Source: Candidatus Nomurabacteria bacterium (GTDB lineage Bacteria > Patescibacteriota > Minisyncoccia > Phycocordibacterales > UBA9973). From it: a DNA stretch of 64,000 nt. The notes below the pieces were generated by a model. It had not been told where the DNA came from and searched no databases. It saw only the letters and a program-made list of their open reading frames with translations. Positions within the stretch are counted from its first letter, which is position 1, and the number at the start of each line of letters is the position of its first letter. The translations under genes and the position numbers were made by a program. The DNA lies in assembly GCA_026396015.1 (NCBI GenBank), contig JAPLXP010000003.1, forward strand, positions 105,810-169,809, in the 5' to 3' direction. Below, one piece after another: positions 5,833-58,267 of the stretch.

Positions 5833-5834
5833 TG

Positions 5835-5921
5835 CGGAGCCGGACGGATTCGAACCGTCGAGGGCTTTTACACCCTGCCTCTTTAGCAAAGAGGTACGTT
5901 AGACCACTCTGACACGGCTCC
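5835..5921 (-). tRNA. tRNA-Ser (anticodon GCU), type II with long variable arm
   Basis: Minus strand GGAGCCG...CCTCT-TTGCTAA-AGAGG...GACGG-TTCGAAT-CCGTC-CGGCTCC-G. It has a 7-bp acceptor stem, canonical T loop and discriminator G. Confidence 0.85.
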
Positions 5922-6535: not shown

Positions 6536-6634
6536 ATTTAAAAGTAAAATTTAATTTACTTGAATAATTATTAATGCTTATATTATAGACCTGTCTCTTT
6601 GTGCCGACAAGGGATAGGGTATATAATCAGTCTT

Positions 6635-7786
6635 ATGAATCACGATAATATATACAAAGAATCACTGGAATTACACGAGAAATATCATGGCAAACTAGAA
6701 ACTGTCAGTAAAGTCAGACTCGACAGTAAGGAAGTATTGTCACTGGCATATAGTCCCGGAGTAGCCGAGGTTTCTCGTGCTATATCTGCCGATCCTAGTA
6801 CTGCGCGCCTTTATACATTGAAGGGTAATACTGTCGCCATCGTAAGTGACGGTTCTGCTATCTTGGGATTGGGAAATCTGGGACCACTGGCAGCAATTCC
6901 TGTGATGGAGGGCAAGGCTTGCATACTAAAAGAATTCGCAGGTGTGGATGCATTCCCTATATGTCTGGATACTCAGGATACAGAGGAGATAATAAAAGCA
7001 GTAAAGCAAATTGCTCCAGTATTCGGTGCTATCAACCTCGAGGATATCGCAGCTCCGAGATGTTTTGAAATAGAAGAGAGGCTCCGTGCTGAACTAGATA
7101 TCCCAGTCATGCACGATGACCAATGGGGTGCAGCTACTGTGACACTGTCTGCGATAATAAATTCACTAAAATTAATCGGTAAGACAAAAGAGGAAATAAA
7201 AGTAGTTCTTTCTGGGGTGGGTGCAGCTGGTGTGGCTACTGCACGATTGCTATCTGTATACGGAATAAAAAATATTGTCTTCTGTGATAGTCACGGTATC
7301 ATCCATCACGATCGTACTGATCTGACAAAAGAGAAAAAGGAATTACTCACTGGTAGTACTGCTGTCGTATCTGAAGGGGACTTGGCTCTCGCAATAATCG
7401 ATGCCGATGTATTCATCGGACTTTCCAAGCCAGGAGTACTCTCTGCGGATATGGTGCGAACAATGGCTGCGAAGCCTGTGATATTTGCACTAGCCAACCC
7501 GACTCCAGAGATCATGCCGGATATTGCTCATGAAGCTGGTGCATATATAGTAGCTACAGGTCGTAGTGATTTTCCAAATCAGATAAACAACTCTCTAGTA
7601 TTTCCAGGTGCATTCAGGGGGATGCTCGATGCACAGATACCACAATTTAAAATAGAAATGTTTTCTGCTATCGCCCAGGCTATCGCAGATTCAGTCGTCG
7701 ACCTAACACCTGAGAAAATAATCCCGACAATGTGGGATGAGGGTGGCGTAGATCTGGTGGCGAATACTATTAAGAGATTTAAATAA
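6635..7786 (+). CDS. NAD(P)-dependent malic enzyme (short form; ORF-track start 6599 is GTG, likely true ATG at 6635)
   Basis: YTLKGNTVAIVSDGSAILGLGNLGPLAAIPVMEGKA plus the Rossmann GVGAAGVA motif. Length matches MaeB-type short malic enzymes. Confidence 0.8.
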   Translation: MNHDNIYKESLELHEKYHGKLETVSKVRLDSKEVLSLAYSPGVAEVSRAISADPSTARLYTLKGNTVAIVSDGSAILGLGNLGPLAAIPVMEGKACILKEFAGVDAFPICLDTQDTEEIIKAVKQIAPVFGAINLEDIAAPRCFEIEERLRAELDIPVMHDDQWGAATVTLSAIINSLKLIGKTKEEIKVVLSGVGAAGVATARLLSVYGIKNIVFCDSHGIIHHDRTDLTKEKKELLTGSTAVVSEGDLALAIIDADVFIGLSKPGVLSADMVRTMAAKPVIFALANPTPEIMPDIAHEAGAYIVATGRSDFPNQINNSLVFPGAFRGMLDAQIPQFKIEMFSAIAQAIADSVVDLTPEKIIPTMWDEGGVDLVANTIKRFK

Positions 7787-7846
7787 AAAGTTCACAAAAT
7801 ACCACCTTTCTGCTATACTCAGAAAATCATACATGGAGGCGTGGAT

Positions 7847-7970
7847 ATGAAATATGAACTGCTTCATATTTCATCCGTTCGGTCACAATAGACCGACGAG
7901 CGATTATACGAAGTATAAGCTCGAGGGTAGGGTCCGGGAGGACACGAAGACACAACGACGAGTATAACGA
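7847..7970 (+). other. about 125-nt structured intergenic element bounded by a 12-nt direct repeat of the downstream tRNA 5' end (GGAGGCGTGGAT at 7835 and 7971). It contains GC-rich boxes related to the ligA-insert repeat
   Basis: Perfect hairpins tgaaatatgaa-ctgc-ttcatatttca, cggtc-acaata-gaccg and gagcgattatac-gaa-gtataagctc. cggtc...ccgacgagcg and gtccgggaggac resemble the boxes at 29681 and 29704. Confidence 0.4.
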
Positions 7971-8055
7971 GGAGGCGTGGATGAGTGGTTTAAATCAACG
8001 GTTTACTAAACCGTCGTCTGTTACAGGACCGTGAGTTCGAATCTCACCGCCTCCG
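7971..8055 (+). tRNA. type II tRNA with Ser-type identity (long variable arm, discriminator G). The apparent anticodon ACU is unusual
   Basis: Acceptor GGAGGCG/CGCCTCC, T arm GTGAG-TTCGAAT-CTCAC, anticodon stem-loop ACGGT-TTACTAA-ACCGT giving positions 34-36 = ACT. Confidence 0.6.
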
Positions 8056-8094
8056 CAAAATTGTGATAGCACGATATTTGTCATAAATGAACAC

Positions 8095-8844
8095 ATGAAA
8101 ATACTCACTCTCAATACCCAAAAAGCATACCAACCGGATTTTAAAAATTTTATTGTGAATGTTCTAAATAGAGGAGAGTATGATTTCATTTTGCTTCAAG
8201 AGGTCACATCTTCTGTTTCAGACATGATAAAAACAGCTTCTTCGGAGTATCAAATGATCAATCCATTTGATCCTGAACTCGGAGAACATACGCATGGATG
8301 TGTACTTTATAAAAATTTGTTTACTTTGCAAAAAGAACTATTTGTATCTTTTGCCATTCTTGAACCTGGATTTCCTCGCCATGGCTGGGGATTTACGGGA
8401 GGAGTTTTTAATTACGGCGGTAAAAGAATATTTGTTGGCTCAGCACACTTGCATCCAGGATTAAGAAAGAAACGTCGAATGGAACAGCTTAAACTCGTAA
8501 AGGAAAAAGTTATGGCAGAATTTGGTGCGATAACTGTAGTATTTGGTGGTGATTTTAATTTCGGAATGCCGGGAGAAATTTCTTGTTCCGAAAAGATACT
8601 GTCTCCGGAATTTGTGCGAGTCACGAAAGGTCTTGGTCCAACGCTTGATAGTAGATATACCGAGAAAACATCGTGGGGCGTAGCTAGGATAGCGAACATA
8701 CTAGCGAAACTTGGTATTTCTATTAGGCTCAGAGCTGATCATGTATATATCGATAGCCTCACTGTAAAAAGCGCACCTGTGAGATGTCGGATAGTTCCTG
8801 ATCGGGTATCGGATCATTTGGCAGTCGAAGTCTCTATTGGATAA
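8095..8844 (+). CDS. endonuclease/exonuclease/phosphatase (EEP) family protein
   Basis: FILLQEV near the N-terminus, GGDFNF, and the C-terminal SDHLAV motif typical of ExoIII/EEP-fold enzymes. Confidence 0.7.
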   Translation: MKILTLNTQKAYQPDFKNFIVNVLNRGEYDFILLQEVTSSVSDMIKTASSEYQMINPFDPELGEHTHGCVLYKNLFTLQKELFVSFAILEPGFPRHGWGFTGGVFNYGGKRIFVGSAHLHPGLRKKRRMEQLKLVKEKVMAEFGAITVVFGGDFNFGMPGEISCSEKILSPEFVRVTKGLGPTLDSRYTEKTSWGVARIANILAKLGISIRLRADHVYIDSLTVKSAPVRCRIVPDRVSDHLAVEVSIG

Positions 8845-8920
8845 GGTGCTCGAGACGCGTCGATTTTGAATCTGAAAAAATGCTAAAATGACCTTACTGG
8901 TCTTGTCGGGTTTTAGTTCT

Positions 8921-9040
8921 AACACGACGTTCTCCGCAAAAAAGAAAACCCGAAAGGGTTTTTCTTTTTTTGCGGGCGAGAAAGTGATCTGCGTCACTTT
9001 TGTGTGAGATTCGAAGACCTTTTCGTTATGATTAAAGAAT
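8921..9040 (+). other. degenerate copy (C) of the tRNA-3'-end-associated element family (see 33442 and 40116). It includes a 42-nt palindromic terminator-like hairpin
   Basis: ccgcaaaaaagaaaacccgaaagggtttttctttttttgcgg (8934-8975) parallels the hairpin after tRNA-Asp. gaagaccttttcgttatga matches gaagaccttttccttatga at 40181 at 18/19 positions. It is preceded by the tRNA-3'-like remnant ttctccgca. Confidence 0.4.
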
Positions 9041-9121
9041 GCTATTCTTTAATACTCGTCTTGTTTTCAATTATGATTTTTGACTATAGCAGAAAATGGT
9101 CTTTTTTGCTACTATGTTTTT

Positions 9122-40044: not shown

Positions 40045-40115
40045 TGCTAGATCGTCTAATGGTAGGACAACGGTTTCTGGTACCGTTTATCTAGGTTCGA
40101 GTCCTAGTCTAGCAA
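40045..40115 (+). tRNA. tRNA-Gln (CUG)
   Basis: U1-A72 acceptor TGCTAGA/TCTAGCA as in bacterial tRNA-Gln, anticodon stem-loop ACGGT-TTCTGGT-ACCGT, T arm CTAGG-TTCGAGT-CCTAG. Confidence 0.7.
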
Positions 40116-40276
40116 CAAAAAATAGCGCAGCGGTTTTTGCTGCTAGAAACAAGACAACTGCTTGTCTTGTGGCTAGGACAAGAAGACCTTTTCCTTATGA
40201 GTGTAATCACGAATGGAAAAGTGTGTACTGAATCTGTAAGGTTTGAGAGGTGTAATCACGGTCCTAGTCTAGCAGC
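40116..40276 (+). other. tRNA-Gln-associated structured element (B). Hairpin, tRNA-5'-like TGCTAGA, a 9-bp hairpin, GGCTAGGACAAG, the conserved GAAGACCTTTTCCTTA...GGAAAAGT, then a 14-nt direct repeat of the tRNA-Gln 3' end followed by GCCA
   Basis: gtcctagtctagca at 40261 repeats 40102-40115. The gtgtaatcacg direct repeat appears twice. Motifs are shared with element A. Confidence 0.5.
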
Positions 40277-56591: not shown

Positions 56592-56632
56592 AAATACCCC
56601 GCGCCTGTGGCGCGGGGTATTTTTTATTCTGT
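56592..56632. terminator. bidirectional terminator ccccgcgcc-tgt-ggcgcgggg + T tract
   Basis: 9-bp GC stem read directly. Confidence 0.7.
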
Positions 56633-58267
56633 ACATGCACCGTTTGAGTTTACATTTACAAGATTGAACATTTGGATACACAAGTCATCGATATTCTTTT
56701 TATATTTGAATACATGATCTTCACCTGCGTAGGGGATGAAAGTAACATTCTTGCCTGCATCTTTTAATTTTCCATATAGTAGATCAGCTTGCCATGGTGG
56801 TATAGTGCGATCACTCTGTCCTTGAACTAGAAATATTTTTTGATTACCAATATTTCGAATTTTATTTATGATTGAGGCTTGATCGTATTGAGATCTATTG
56901 TTTGTATCTGGTAATCCCCCGAACTGCACATTGAATATAGAAGTCTTCATTTTGATTAGCAAACTTTCCCAATCTGTCACGCCATTGATAGACATGATAC
57001 TACGGAATTTTTCTGGATGCTCAGCTAGAGTTTTTAGTGATAGGTATCCACCATAGCTATTTCCAGCCATATACACATCATTCACATTGTATCTAGATTT
57101 GATATTGTCTATTGAATTTATTACATCATTCACATCACCACGTCCGACCTCACCTTTTAATCTCTCTGAATATTCTGTGCCGAATCCTAGACTACCTCTA
57201 TAATCTAGCTTTAAAACTATCACACCACTCCCCGATAGCTTTTGTAAAATCTCATCGTATATACCATAGCTGTGGAATGAGTGGTATCCGAGCCCAGCTT
57301 GCCTGTATGGGCCTCCGTGGAGCCATACGAGCAGAGGGTGGGGCACAGACATGTCCGATGGAGTCATAATTATTCCGTTTAAATCTCCAATTTTTATTTC
57401 ATGCTCATTATCTAGATTTGCTGTTTTTTGTATTCCTGGAATATTGAATTTTTTTACTATGCCACTCTTTGTGTCATACATAGCTGGGCCATAACCTTTT
57501 TGTTCTAGGTTGTAGAATGCTATGTATTTACCAATTTTATATAGTGGTCCAGTATGTGCTGCTATACCACTATCTATTTTTATCTCTGCCTGTTTTGATA
57601 TGTTGTATTTATATAATGACCATTTGTATGGATCTGCTTTTGTATTTGCTATGTAATAGATTGTATTTGAATCTGTAACAATAAAATTATTTATATTGAG
57701 TGTGTTACTCTTCAATTCTTTGATTCTTGGATTGTTTGTTTGATTACCAGATGCTTCTACTATATATAGCTGCATGGATCCAGATTTATCATCTACATAT
57801 ACGACTTGATTTGAATTTGGAATAAAATCAAATAATTTTCTCGCATCAGTGATACTGTCCCAGTACGATAATTGCTTGCTGATTGTGTATGTTTTTTTAT
57901 TTTTGATATTTTCAAATACAAAAGTCCTAGTCCCATTTGTTTTATTAAGAGTACCAAGGTAATAGGCAAGGATATTTTTTGAAGGGGATAGTGTTATATA
58001 ATCTGCTTTAATCTTTGATAGTATTTTTGTTGTCTTGCTTGGTATAGCTATACTCCCTGGTTTTCCTAGGGAGATATTATTTTTTTGGTCACATGAAAAG
58101 TCTGCGAGTGAACATAGATAATTTGTCTTTGTATTTACTCCATAATATTGAATAAAAATATCTTTAGAATTCCATCCATTTATATTCCCATAATTGATTG
58201 ATATCGCATATGTAGTATGTGTTGAAAATAATATTAATATTATTATTAAATATTTGAAGTATCTCAT
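56624..58267 (-). CDS. S9 family serine peptidase (prolyl oligopeptidase/DPP-like) with N-terminal signal peptide and beta-propeller
   Basis: Nucleophile elbow GNSYGGY, C-terminal alpha/beta-hydrolase domain with D and H. Confidence 0.75.
   Translation of the reverse strand: MRYFKYLIIILILFSTHTTYAISINYGNINGWNSKDIFIQYYGVNTKTNYLCSLADFSCDQKNNISLGKPGSIAIPSKTTKILSKIKADYITLSPSKNILAYYLGTLNKTNGTRTFVFENIKNKKTYTISKQLSYWDSITDARKLFDFIPNSNQVVYVDDKSGSMQLYIVEASGNQTNNPRIKELKSNTLNINNFIVTDSNTIYYIANTKADPYKWSLYKYNISKQAEIKIDSGIAAHTGPLYKIGKYIAFYNLEQKGYGPAMYDTKSGIVKKFNIPGIQKTANLDNEHEIKIGDLNGIIMTPSDMSVPHPLLVWLHGGPYRQAGLGYHSFHSYGIYDEILQKLSGSGVIVLKLDYRGSLGFGTEYSERLKGEVGRGDVNDVINSIDNIKSRYNVNDVYMAGNSYGGYLSLKTLAEHPEKFRSIMSINGVTDWESLLIKMKTSIFNVQFGGLPDTNNRSQYDQASIINKIRNIGNQKIFLVQGQSDRTIPPWQADLLYGKLKDAGKNVTFIPYAGEDHVFKYKKNIDDLCIQMFNLVNVNSNGACTE

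What the first reader, a model, noticed from the sequence alone, without database searches (positions are those of the whole stretch)
7787..8094. Type II tRNA with apparent ACU anticodon, preceded by a 12-nt copy of its own 5' end and a GC-box-bearing structured spacer
The tRNA at 7971-8055 has Ser identity features: a long variable arm, discriminator G, and a standard acceptor and T arm. The only 5-bp anticodon stem I can form (ACGGT/ACCGT) leaves the loop TTACTAA, that is anticodon ACU. A separate tRNA-Ser(GCU) exists at 5835. A34 anticodons are rare in bacteria outside tRNA-Arg(ACG), though reduced genomes such as Mycoplasma carry unmodified A34 tRNAs. Exactly 136 nt upstream, GGAGGCGTGGAT, the first 12 nt of the tRNA, is repeated. 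The interval contains three perfect hairpins plus motifs (cggtc...ccgacgagcg; gtccgggaggac) resembling the two boxes of the ligA/macB GC-rich repeat. So this locus may link the GC-rich repeat family to the tRNA-end-duplicating elements. Alternatively the tRNA is a non-functional paralogue.
Basis: partly seen in the sequence, partly recalled or inferred. Interest (0 to 1): 0.55.

Follow-up and report, generated by a model that had tools for sequence, protein, structure and literature searches.

The report
AGU-reading serine tRNA with decoy leader
A candidate-phyla (Patescibacteria) genome carries a conserved, evidently functional serine tRNA with the very rare anticodon ACU, and it sits behind a conserved folded leader, apparently undescribed and found only in front of serine tRNA genes, that begins with an exact copy of the tRNA's first 12 bases.

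Summary
ARAGORN and Rfam call a type II tRNA-Ser(ACU) at 7971-8056, and GGAGGCGTGGAT recurs exactly 136 nt upstream. The tRNA is not a pseudogene. Nineteen distinct homologues, from related Patescibacteria genomes, metagenomes and six IMG/VR contigs with large tRNA arrays, keep every stem through compensatory changes and keep the loop UUACUAA. The genetic code is standard, and AGU outnumbers AGC 3.5 to 1. The most likely role is an AGU-specific reader working beside tRNA-Ser(GCU).

The 12-nt copy plus 124-nt spacer is one unit of a widespread leader. It is absent from Rfam and from the literature I searched. A metagenome scan found it in front of 44 tRNA genes, all tRNA-Ser (anticodons CGA, UGA, GCU, ACU). 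The upstream 12-mer equals that tRNA's own 5' end in 35 of 40 units, across 11 different 12-mers. The hairpins covary. An internal 6-mer complements tRNA positions 4-9.

I read the leader as a co-transcribed, tRNA-Ser-derived domain whose decoy 5' strand competes for the acceptor 3' strand. Its function is inferred, not shown.

The proposed link to the ligA/macB GC-rich repeat is not supported. The link to the other tRNA-end-duplicating elements in the window is supported.

The parts
7791..7819 (+). Sigma-70-like promoter, TTCACA-17-TATACT, with TG before the -10. It lies 15 nt upstream of the first 12-mer copy.
   Evidence: Promoter scan, 10 of 12 matches, extended -10. Relatives that lack the leader have their -10 at the same 13-16 nt from tRNA position +1. 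No terminator-like site lies on the + strand between here and the tRNA.
7835..7846 (+). X1: exact copy of tRNA positions 1-12 (acceptor 5' strand, U8, G9, D-stem 5' strand). This is the 'decoy' strand.
   Evidence: Direct repeat. X1 is identical to the tRNA's own first 12 nt in 35 of 40 unique units, covering 11 different 12-mers.
7847..7874 (+). P_A: perfect 12-bp hairpin ATGAAATATGAA/CTGC/TTCATATTTCAT, occupying the position of a D arm.
   Evidence: Inverted repeat I2. In the family, 99.7% of cells are paired and 5 of 12 pairs show double (compensatory) changes.
7879..7896 (+). P_B: hairpin TCGGTC/ACAATA/GACCGA. Its sequence varies across the family but the structure is conserved.
   Evidence: Folding of 33 family members shows P_B immediately followed by P_C in at least 30 of 33.
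7897..7923 (+). P_C: two-tier hairpin CGAGC-GA-TTATAC/GAA/GTATAA-GCTCG.
   Evidence: The same two-tier shape appears with unrelated sequences in the other units.
7924..7949 (+). Junction AGGGTAGG, then P_D (GTCC-GGGA-GGAC, 7932-7943, GNRA loop), then the invariant ACGAAG. This is 'box B'.
   Evidence: Invariant columns in alignment A1. The P_D pair U:A changes to C:G in 15 of 33 units. The motif GGGNCCGNRAGGNCACGAAGNCA retrieved 44 tRNA-Ser loci from metagenomes.
7951..7956 (+). X': CACAAC, the segment that in the family is complementary to tRNA positions 4-9. In this window it is partly degenerate, with 4 of 6 pairs.
   Evidence: The helix is 88.8% paired across the family and 4 of 6 pairs show double changes. 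Mean pairing is 5.1 of 6 with the cognate tRNA against 4.4 of 6 with non-cognate tRNAs.
7957..7970 (+). Tail GACGAGTATAACGA. It ends at the predicted RNase P cleavage site, 7970/7971.
   Evidence: The conserved GACGAR....RYGA tail appears in most units. The cleavage site is inferred from the mature tRNA 5' end.
7971..8056 (+). tRNA-Ser(ACU). The anticodon is at 8005-8007, there is a long variable arm, and the discriminator G is at 8055.
   Evidence: Nineteen unique homologues keep all stems paired, and compensatory changes occur in the acceptor, D, anticodon, variable and T stems.
5834..5921 (-). tRNA-Ser(GCU), the usual divergent neighbour of the ACU gene in relatives. Here it is separated from it by DoxX and malic-enzyme genes.
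   Evidence: GCU(-)/ACU(+) pairs lie 70-170 nt apart in L018, L019, L022, L026, L027, L031 and L037.
8945..9095 (-). Degenerate inverted partial copy of the promoter-leader-tRNA unit. It has the same promoter over 25 nt, then GACGAGTAT, then TTCGAATCTCAC, then a terminator hairpin.
   Evidence: blastn-short hits 7807-7831 to 9095-9072 (92%) and 8036-8047 to 9015-9004. The sequence was read. The three blocks are collinear. Not followed up further.

Best explanation
Two linked things are present.

(1) 7971-8056 is a functional serine tRNA with anticodon ACU. It is conserved in a clade of Patescibacteria (Paceibacteria/Nomurabacteria-like), usually next to a divergent tRNA-Ser(GCU). Its A34 most likely stays unmodified and pairs by Watson-Crick geometry with AGU, the dominant AGY codon in these AT-rich genomes. 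tRNA-Ser(GCU) would then cover AGC. The code stays standard, with AGA and AGG read as Arg.

(2) The 12-nt copy plus the 124-nt spacer (7835-7970) is one unit of a conserved structured 5' leader found only in front of tRNA-Ser genes. The unit is laid out like a degenerate type II tRNA:
- X1, the tRNA's 5' acceptor and D strand;
- four hairpins, P_A to P_D;
- the invariant ACGAAG;
- X', a remnant of an acceptor 3' strand;
- a short tail.

It sits between the promoter (7791-7819) and the tRNA, so it is transcribed as part of the precursor. It must be removed by cleavage at 7970/7971, presumably by RNase P.

X1 equals the true 5' end (X2), and X' complements both. The precursor can therefore adopt two exclusive folds:
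- Fold A: X' pairs with X1, and X2 pairs with the acceptor 3' strand. This is the native tRNA and can be processed.
- Fold B: X1 pairs with the acceptor 3' strand, and X' masks X2. This cannot be processed correctly.

I propose that the leader acts in cis as a decoy or switch that gates folding and 5' maturation of tRNA-Ser.

Shown: the gene, its conservation, the leader family and its Ser specificity, the covariation, and the X1=X2 identity. Inferred: transcription, RNase P cleavage, the A34 modification state, and the switch function.
For: tRNA:
- ARAGORN and Rfam call it.
- Ser(ACT) genes occur in 8 related genomes beside Ser(GCT), in more than 14 metagenome contigs, and in 6 IMG/VR contigs with tRNA arrays.
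- Nineteen unique sequences have 100% paired stems with compensatory changes, and the loop UUACUAA is invariant.
- U36-A37 is the same loop context as in the GCU isoacceptor.
- AGT 247 against AGC 70 in the window's ORFs.
- AGA and AGG align with Arg columns, and AGT and AGC with Ser/Thr columns, in 80 malic-enzyme orthologues.
- An engineered tRNA with anticodon ACU reads AGU in E. coli, but AGC and AGA were below detection (PMC11066159).
- Relatives carry tRNA-Arg(GCG), and no Arg(ACG) was seen in the Patescibacteria-type loci scanned. This hints that TadA may be absent.

Leader:
- The box B scan gave 44 hits upstream of tRNA genes, all of them Ser (anticodons cga, tga, gct, act).
- X1=X2 in 35 of 40 units over 11 different 12-mers.
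- Within the ACU-type leader lineage, the acceptor change GCG to GAU (L146, L147) is mirrored in X1 and complemented in X' (CAATCC).
- P_A, P_D and X' are 96.8% paired, with 10 pairs showing double changes. None of 500 shuffles reached this, and slid controls gave 26-48%.
- G:U pairs occur in P_A and P_D; of their 528 cells one is not a standard pair (G opposite A), and none is A opposite C. This fits sense-strand RNA.
- P_B and P_C keep their shape with unrelated sequences.
- The promoter lies at the same distance from X1 as from tRNA +1 in leaderless relatives.
- The X1-closed fold is predicted more stable than the native fold in 40 of 40 units, by a mean of 7 kcal/mol, and it is the minimum-free-energy fold in the window.
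- No Rfam family matches.
Against: - There are no expression, 5'-end or modification data.
- The whole genome could not be checked for tadA or for the full tRNA set.
- X' is degenerate in this window (4 of 6 pairs) and in several other units, so the 'switch' cannot depend strictly on it here.
- The excess of cognate over non-cognate X' pairing is modest, 5.1 against 4.4 of 6.
- The greater predicted stability of the X1-closed fold is partly a trivial result of loop-entropy terms.
- Orthologous Ser(ACU) genes in L019, L022, L026, L027, L031 and L037 do without the leader. L020, L109 and L127 carry truncated versions. The leader is therefore dispensable.
- Tandem arrays and scars (L099, L106, L112, L125, L151) show that slippage occurs, and slippage could homogenise X1 and X2 without any function.
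- The Rfam tRNA model does not recognise the leader, so 'tRNA-derived' rests on architecture only.
Confidence: 0.55

Rival explanations
1. The leader is a selfish or neutral relic. It could be a miniature integrated element that restores the tRNA 5' end, making the 12-mers an att-like or target duplication. Or it could be the decayed upstream copy of a tandem tRNA-Ser duplication. Either way it is simply tolerated, because RNase P removes it. X1 stays identical to X2 through replication slippage or unequal crossing-over between the repeats.
For: - Presence is patchy among orthologous loci, with truncated forms.
- There are tandem arrays and deletion scars.
- An exact direct repeat of a tRNA end is typical of tRNA-targeted integration (established knowledge; Williams 2002, from memory).
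- A sister family of elements duplicates tRNA 3' ends, sometimes together with the terminator.
- The promoter sits before X1, as if X1 were the original gene start.
Against: - No integrase, transposase or reverse transcriptase was found among the window ORFs scanned.
- There are no terminal inverted repeats (read directly from the sequence).
- All occurrences are at tRNA-Ser genes and in the sense orientation.
- Junction nucleotides are strongly conserved and helices covary with G:U pairs.
- Leader subtypes follow the isoacceptor types. This argues for long vertical association, during which an unconstrained X1 should have decayed.
- The complementary change in X' (CAATCC for GGATTG) is not explained by slippage.
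Confidence: 0.3
2. The tRNA's A34 is deaminated to inosine, so it would read AGU, AGC and weakly AGA. Or the tRNA serves a non-ribosomal role, for example as a seryl donor for cell-wall or lipid modification, rather than reading AGU.
For: A34 is converted to I34 in nearly all known bacterial A34 tRNAs (established knowledge). In the IMG/VR arrays Ser(ACU) is the only AGY-reading tRNA, and Arg(ACG) is present. This would fit an I34-capable host.
Against: - Bacterial TadA is specific for the Arg ACG loop (established knowledge). The engineered ACU tRNA in E. coli read neither AGC nor AGA, the opposite of what I34 would give.
- Relatives use Arg(GCG) rather than Arg(ACG).
- I34 in a split codon box would misread AGA (Arg), which is used 177 times in the window's ORFs.
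- The anticodon loop is invariant and matches the ANN-decoder context U36-A37. That conservation is unnecessary for a mere aminoacyl donor.
Confidence: 0.1
3. The 136 nt between the two 12-mers is an intervening sequence in the D region. X1 would be the true 5' exon, and the segment from 7847 to 7982 would be spliced out.
For: X1 lies where the gene start is expected relative to the promoter. X1 can replace positions 1-12 in the cloverleaf. The X1-closed fold is the predicted minimum. Introns are frequent in Patescibacteria tRNA genes (PMC13011429).
Against: - No group I intron or any other Rfam model matches.
- Known Patescibacteria tRNA introns are group I and lie in the anticodon loop.
- The two junctions are same-sense repeats, so no bulge-helix-bulge motif can form (read from the sequence).
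- An intact tRNA directly follows, so simple RNase P cleavage is enough.
- Tandem leader units (L099, L106) would require repeated splicing.
Confidence: 0.04
4. The tRNA is a non-functional paralogue or pseudogene. The spacer is a copy of the GC-rich repeat seen in ligA and macB.
For: ACU is an unusual anticodon, and a GCU isoacceptor already exists 2 kb away. A few short motifs look alike to the eye.
Against: Nineteen homologues are conserved with compensatory changes and no stem mismatch. There is no significant similarity of the spacer or of the leader profile to any other part of the window.
Confidence: 0.02

Closest known systems
Natural unmodified-A34 tRNAs of reduced genomes (Mycoplasma capricolum tRNA-Thr(AGU); yeast mitochondrial tRNA-Arg(ACG)) and the engineered ACU-anticodon tRNA of Schmitt et al. 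2024 (PMC11066159)
   Same: A at the wobble position in a small AT-rich genome. It is expected to prefer the U-ending codon strongly. The engineered ACU anticodon read AGU, while AGC and AGA were below detection.
   Different: Here the A34 tRNA sits in a split codon box (AGY Ser, AGR Arg), whereas the natural unmodified-A34 examples cited (Mycoplasma tRNA-Thr, yeast mitochondrial tRNA-Arg) read four-codon boxes. It coexists with a G34 isoacceptor instead of replacing it. It is conserved across many species and also occurs in tRNA arrays of IMG/VR contigs.
Integrative elements and genomic islets inserted in tRNA genes, which leave a direct repeat of the tRNA segment (att sites)
   Same: An exact direct repeat of a tRNA gene end flanks the inserted DNA, and the tRNA gene stays intact.
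   Different: - The 5' end rather than the 3' end is duplicated.
- The insert is only 124 nt.
- No recombinase gene was found in the window.
- The insert is always in front of tRNA-Ser and is transcribed in sense.
- Its helices covary like an RNA.
- The repeat tracks later changes in the tRNA acceptor stem.
tRNA-like RNA domains (the tmRNA tRNA-like domain, bacterial Y-RNA-like YrlA, viral tRNA-like structures)
   Same: A multi-hairpin domain that borrows a tRNA's acceptor-strand sequence and its order of arms.
   Different: No Rfam model matches. The domain lacks its own complete acceptor 3' strand and lacks a T loop. It is fused directly upstream of the tRNA it mimics.
Leader RNAs that switch between exclusive pairings (attenuators, T-box and other riboswitches)
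   Same: Three segments with the same or complementary sequence (X1, X', X2), plus the acceptor 3' strand, allow two mutually exclusive folds. One fold is productive.
   Different: The controlled step would be 5' maturation of a tRNA, not transcription or translation of an mRNA. No ligand or sensing element has been identified. This is a resemblance in logic only and was not tested.
The window's own 3' tRNA-end-duplicating elements (after tRNA-Asp, 33472-33592; after tRNA-Gln, 40140-40276) and their relatives after Arg, Glu, Leu and Ser genes in other loci
   Same: They start with a copy of the neighbouring tRNA's 5' acceptor strand, followed at once by a long hairpin capped by AACTRCTT. They carry a CGAA(A)G motif and are highly structured.
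   Different: They lie downstream of the tRNA, after a terminator hairpin. They carry their own complete acceptor 3' strand and T-stem strand, giving a closed Y shape. They are not restricted to serine.

Membership tests
Bacterial type II tRNA-Ser | A cloverleaf recognised by tRNA covariance and heuristic models | tested here: met
   ARAGORN calls tRNA-Ser. Rfam RF00005 scores 57.4 bits against a gathering score of 29.
Bacterial type II tRNA-Ser | Long variable arm, discriminator G73, G1-G2-A3 acceptor start, 3-bp D stem | tested here: met
   Read from the sequence and from the alignment of 19 homologues.
Bacterial type II tRNA-Ser | Anticodon cognate to a serine codon under the organism's genetic code | tested here: met
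   ACU pairs with AGU. AGT and AGC align with Ser/Thr columns, and AGA and AGG with Arg columns, in 80 orthologues.
Bacterial type II tRNA-Ser | Charged by SerRS and used on the ribosome | not testable with these tools
   This needs tRNA-seq, charging assays or reporter decoding.
tRNA pseudogene | Broken stems and no conservation across species | tested here: not met
   All stem pairs are standard pairs in 19 unique sequences, with compensatory changes in every stem.
A34-to-I34 (TadA substrate) tRNA | The genome has TadA, and the anticodon loop resembles that of tRNA-Arg(ACG) | tested here: inconclusive
   No deaminase domain was found in the window ORFs scanned, but only 64 kb was available. 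Relatives carry Arg(GCG) rather than Arg(ACG). The loop is UUACUAA, not CUACGAA.
MITE or insertion sequence | Terminal inverted repeats and a short target-site duplication | tested here: not met
   A 12-nt direct repeat is present. The element ends (ATGAAATATG... and ...GAGTATAACGA) are not inverted repeats in the window, in L025 or in L076.
tRNA-targeted integrative element | A direct repeat of a tRNA segment flanking the insert | tested here: met
tRNA-targeted integrative element | A recombinase gene within or next to the insert | tested here: not met
   The insert is 124 nt and non-coding. The flanking genes are a malic enzyme and an Exo_endo_phos family protein. No integrase was found among the other scanned ORFs.
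Group I intron or any other Rfam family | A match to the covariance model | tested here: not met
   cmscan of 7700-8150 at E up to 10 returned only the tRNA and chance-level hits.
ligA/macB GC-rich repeat of this window | Statistically significant sequence similarity | tested here: not met
   blastn-short. nhmmer with the family profile. Smith-Waterman against shuffles, p = 0.18-0.8.
tRNA-Ser leader family (defined here) | X1 equal to tRNA nt 1-12, the P_A hairpin, the GYCC-GNRA-GGRC hairpin plus ACGAAG, and a position directly upstream of tRNA-Ser | tested here: met
   The window unit scores 107.6 bits, E = 3e-31, against the profile of 33 units of which it is itself one.

The most novel reading that the evidence does not exclude
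The leader is a new class of cis-acting RNA switch that controls maturation of a tRNA. A decoy copy of the tRNA's 5' strand (X1) and an anti-strand (X') set up two exclusive precursor folds. The invariant junction nucleotides (AGGGAA, ACGAAG, GACGAG) would bind a factor or metabolite linked to serine or seryl-tRNA supply, and this would decide whether RNase P can release tRNA-Ser. Together with the 3' Y-shaped elements next to Asp, Gln, Arg, Glu and Leu genes, it would define a Patescibacteria-wide superfamily of tRNA-mimicking RNAs that share their neighbour's acceptor sequence.
Probability: 0.15. Interest if true: 0.85.

Novelty: new variant of a known kind. Interest (0 to 1): 0.68.

Why it matters
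A naturally conserved tRNA-Ser(ACU) bears on the textbook expectation that A34 is avoided in split codon boxes. It offers a natural system for studying unmodified-A34 decoding. It is also relevant to how AT-rich reduced genomes, and whatever the IMG/VR tRNA-array contigs represent, tune AGU reading.

The leader is a widespread RNA element, apparently undescribed and specific to one tRNA identity. If its decoy-strand architecture does gate RNase P processing, it would be the first leader-encoded control of tRNA maturation in bacteria. If it is instead a selfish element, it shows a new way in which tRNA genes are parasitised without being inactivated.

Either way it affects annotation. These units and their 3' cousins are unannotated structured sequences beside many Patescibacteria tRNA genes.

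Tried and rejected
1. Short leader ORF. GGAGG-N7-ATG gives MKYELLHISSVRSQ* (7847-7891). Rejected because the stop is not conserved (in L025 the frame runs on into the tRNA) and because the hairpin's compensatory changes are non-synonymous (E to K, H to Y).
2. Genetic-code change (AGR read as Ser through 'superwobble'). Rejected because AGA and AGG align with Arg.
3. Recent duplicate of the neighbouring GCU gene. Rejected at 65.5% identity.
4. Known RNA families, ribozymes and introns. No hit in Rfam 15.
5. MITE. No terminal inverted repeats.
6. Similarity to the ligA or macB GC-rich segments. None.
7. Phage origin of the leader. The box B scan of IMG/VR found nothing. GenBank phages hold only Ser(UGA) relatives of the tRNA.
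8. Literature. Five full-text searches found no description of a natural bacterial tRNA-Ser(ACU) or of this leader. The Patescibacteria tRNA-intron paper does not cover either.
9. The source contig. It could not be traced beyond two 0.9-kb Logan contigs.
10. Global enrichment of AACTRCTT in the window. Not enriched, 6 observed against 5.5 expected. Only its placement at the hairpin apices of the three tRNA-linked elements is notable.
Full report
**Observation**

ARAGORN finds eight tRNA genes in the window. They include tRNA-Ser(GCT) at 5834-5921 (-) and tRNA-Ser(ACT) at 7971-8056 (+). Rfam's tRNA model scores the second at 57.4 bits, against a gathering score of 29, using the standard cloverleaf. 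The anticodon loop is TTACTAA, with the anticodon at 8005-8007.

The 12-mer GGAGGCGTGGAT occurs at 7835-7846 and again as tRNA positions 1-12, exactly 136 nt apart. The 124 nt between the copies contain a perfect 12-bp hairpin (7847-7874) and three more hairpins. This stretch folds better than shuffled sequence (z = -3.6), as does leader plus tRNA (z = -4.0).

**Organism and context**

Orthologues of the adjacent malic enzyme (6599-7786) come from Patescibacteria MAGs labelled Paceibacterota, Nomurabacteria or Saccharibacteria, at 66-82% identity. The flanking genes are DoxX, a malic enzyme and an Exo_endo_phos family protein.

The rest of the window holds a type IV pilus cluster, ligA, gatCA and similar genes. 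No deaminase, integrase, transposase or reverse transcriptase was found among the 48 of its roughly 60 substantial ORFs that were scanned.

**The tRNA is a real, conserved gene**

In eight related genomes a tRNA-Ser(ACT) lies next to a tRNA-Ser(GCT), usually divergent and 70-170 nt away. More copies came from metagenome contigs. Six further copies came from IMG/VR contigs. These contigs carry large tRNA arrays, five of the six with a tmRNA gene, and Ser(ACU) is the only AGY-reading tRNA in the arrays.

Nineteen distinct sequences keep every stem pair as a standard pair. Compensatory changes occur in the acceptor, D, anticodon, variable and T stems. The loop UUACUAA is invariant.

The gene is not a recent copy of the window's GCU gene. 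Identity is 65.5%, against 74-76% to UGA/CGA-type Ser tRNAs.

The code is standard. In 80 malic-enzyme orthologues AGA and AGG fall in Arg columns, and AGT and AGC in Ser/Thr columns. In the window's ORFs AGT outnumbers AGC 247 to 70.

An engineered tRNA with anticodon ACU reads AGU in E. coli, while AGC and AGA were below detection (PMC11066159). The same paper stresses how rare natural unmodified-A34 tRNAs are.

Relatives carry tRNA-Arg(GCG), and none of the Patescibacteria-type loci scanned showed Arg(ACG). This suggests, but does not prove, that TadA is absent.

My reading is that this is an AGU-specific serine tRNA working beside tRNA-Ser(GCU). The A34 state and the decoding are inferred.

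**The 12-mer and spacer belong to a family**

The same leader, with its 12-nt copy, precedes Ser(ACT) in L025, where one hairpin pair has changed from G:C to A:U. A truncated form precedes Ser(ACT) in L020. A full form precedes tRNA-Ser(TGA) in L076, and there the upstream 12-mer is that tRNA's own GGAGGCGTGCCT.

A metagenome scan with the conserved 'box B' (GGGNCCGNRAGGNCACGAAGNCA) returned 65 matches in 63 loci. Forty-four are followed by a tRNA gene, and every one is tRNA-Ser, with anticodons cga, tga, gct or act. Most of the remaining matches are chance hits inside GC-rich contigs; the AT-rich remainder are leaders cut off by a contig end or upstream units of tandem arrays.

Among 40 unique units the upstream 12-mer (X1) equals the tRNA's first 12 nt (X2) in 35 and differs by one base in 5. 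Eleven different 12-mers are represented.

The shared anatomy, in order, is:
- X1;
- AT, then hairpin P_A (about 12 bp, apex AACTGCTT);
- CYGN, then P_B directly followed by the two-tier P_C;
- RGGRA, GG, then P_D (GYCC-GNRA-GGRC);
- the invariant ACGAAG;
- X', six nucleotides complementary to tRNA positions 4-9;
- the tail GACGAR...CGA;
- the tRNA.

Covariation is strong. For P_A, P_D and X', 96.8% of cells are paired and 10 pairs show double changes. None of 500 shuffles reached the observed values, and slid controls gave 26-48% paired.

G:U pairs occur in P_A and P_D; one of their 528 cells is not a standard pair (G opposite A), and none is A opposite C. This fits structure on the sense strand.

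P_B and P_C keep their shape while their sequences differ completely between subtypes.

No Rfam family matches. Five literature searches found no description.

**How it is placed**

A sigma-70-like promoter with an extended -10 (7791-7819) lies 15 nt upstream of X1. Leaderless relatives have their -10 at 13-16 nt from tRNA +1. No terminator-like site intervenes on the + strand.

The leader is therefore most likely transcribed with the tRNA and removed at 7970/7971. This is inferred, presumably by RNase P.

The order of its parts is: acceptor 5' strand, U8 G9, a D-position hairpin, two further arms, a short GNRA-capped arm, a CGAAG stretch resembling a T loop, then a partial acceptor 3' strand. 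This is the order of a type II tRNA. I therefore regard the leader as derived from a tRNA-Ser copy. That view rests on architecture only, because the tRNA covariance model does not score it.

**Why I favour a functional leader over a scar**

Leader subtypes follow the isoacceptor types, which implies long vertical association. Yet X1 has stayed identical to X2 while acceptor stems diverged.

Within the ACU-type lineage, L146 and L147 changed the acceptor from GGAGGCG to GGAGGAT. X1 carries the same change, and X' changed to the complementary CAATCC or CATTCC.

If X1 only needed to close the leader on X', it would not need to match the tRNA. The match suggests that X1, X2, X' and the acceptor 3' strand interact.

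Constrained folding predicts that the conformer with X1 on the acceptor 3' strand is more stable than the native tRNA fold in 40 of 40 units, by a mean of 7 kcal/mol. It is also the minimum-free-energy fold in the window.

Hence the decoy or switch model:
- Fold A: X':X1 and X2:3' strand. This can be processed.
- Fold B: X1:3' strand and X':X2. This cannot be processed correctly.

**Caveats**

- X' is degenerate in this window (CACAAC, 4 of 6 pairs).
- The cognate excess for X' pairing is modest, 5.1 against 4.4 of 6.
- Part of the energy difference between the two folds comes from loop-entropy terms.
- Several orthologous genes lack the leader or carry truncated forms.
- Tandem arrays and scars show that slippage occurs, and slippage could homogenise X1 and X2.
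- The main rival, a tolerated selfish or relic insertion, therefore keeps a substantial probability of 0.3.

The GC-rich segments in ligA (about 29625-29757) and in the peptidase ORF (57261-57373) show no similarity to the spacer. This was tested by blastn-short, by a profile of 33 leaders, and by Smith-Waterman against shuffles, p = 0.18-0.8.

The link to the 'tRNA-end-duplicating elements' is real. After tRNA-Asp (33472-33592) and tRNA-Gln (40140-40276) lie Y-shaped structures (z = -5.8 and -4.9). Their closing stems are copies of the neighbouring tRNA's acceptor strands. Their first hairpin has the same AACTRCTT apex as P_A. Similar 3' elements follow Arg(GCG), Glu, Leu and Ser genes in other loci.

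**Verdict**

The finding is real on both counts. The tRNA is a new, conserved variant of a known kind: an A34 tRNA, but in a split codon box. The leader is an apparently undescribed structured element, specific to tRNA-Ser, whose mechanism remains inferred.

Noticed in passing
window 33443-33592: After tRNA-Asp (33368-33442) and a terminator-like hairpin lies a 121-nt Y-shaped element. It starts with GCGGTCGGAGC, about 10 of the first 11 nt of the tRNA. It ends with TCCGGTCGACCGCGC, an exact copy of the tRNA's last 15 nt. A second terminator hairpin follows. Fold z = -5.8.
   Followed up: partly
window 40117-40276: After tRNA-Gln (40045-40116) lies a homologous element. It has TGCTAGA (the tRNA 5' strand), a hairpin with apex AACTGCTT, the CTTTTCC...GGAAAAG module shared with the Asp element, and an exact copy of the tRNA 3' end, GTCCTAGTCTAGCA. 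Fold z = -4.9.
   Followed up: partly
L049, L058, L106, L118 (Arg-GCG); L103 (Glu); L115 (Leu); L018, L044, L076, L145 (Ser): The same kind of 3' element occurs 140-200 nt downstream of other tRNA genes in other Patescibacteria. It combines a 5'-strand copy, a GAACTGCTTC hairpin, GCGAAAAGCTTTTC...GAAAAGG...GATATCC, and a copy of the tRNA 3' end. In L115 and L106 the terminator is duplicated as well.
   Followed up: partly
window 8945-9095 (- strand): A small transcription-unit-like stretch. Its promoter is 92% identical over 25 nt to the Ser(ACU) promoter. It then has GACGAGTAT, TTCGAATCTCAC (the T loop and stem of Ser(ACU)) and a strong terminator hairpin. It looks like a decayed inverted copy of the leader-tRNA unit on the far side of the Exo_endo_phos gene.
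   Followed up: partly
L083-L088 (IMG/VR contigs up to 238 kb): Arrays of 13-28 tRNA genes (five of the six loci also hold a tmRNA gene) contain a close homologue of tRNA-Ser(ACU). They also hold Ser(UGA), Arg(ACG) and Arg(UCU), but no Ser(GCU) in the stretches seen. The host is unknown, and GC is 33-42%.
   Followed up: partly
L004, L006, L023, L049, L050, L052, L054, L055, L058, L062, L065-L067, L070, L078, L081: Relatives encode tRNA-Arg(GCG), and no tRNA-Arg(ACG) was seen in any of the 80 genome loci. This hints that the clade may lack the TadA/I34 system.
   Followed up: no
L038 about 1310-1511; L051 about 835-1034: Upstream of tRNA-Ser(GGA) lies a partial copy of the tRNA (the first 25 nt). 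It is interrupted by a structured insert of about 85 nt, followed by an anticodon-arm-like piece with an altered loop, and then the intact gene. This is a different, longer kind of 5' duplication.
   Followed up: no
L018 about 8670-8860 (- strand): At least 56 nt of the 5' part of Ser(ACT) are repeated upstream of the intact gene. The stretch between them is a masked run of N, so the arrangement (tandem gene or longer leader) cannot be read.
   Followed up: no
window about 29625-29757 (in ligA, 28396-30564) and 57261-57373 (in the Peptidase_S9 ORF, 56624-58267): These are local GC-rich stretches (57-62% GC, against about 35% for the genome) inside coding regions. They are not similar to each other or to the tRNA leader by local alignment.
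   Followed up: partly
window 34934-35836: This release-factor ORF (PCRF and RF-1 domains) starts at profile position 85 of PCRF. That would fit a prfB gene with the usual programmed +1 frameshift upstream. Not examined.
   Followed up: no
L091, L098, L134, L144 (GC-rich metagenome contigs): The box B pattern also matches just before an ATG in a conserved GC-rich 5' region (GGGGCCGAGAGGGCACGAAGTCATGG). These are unrelated organisms and no tRNA is nearby. I took it as coincidence.
   Followed up: no
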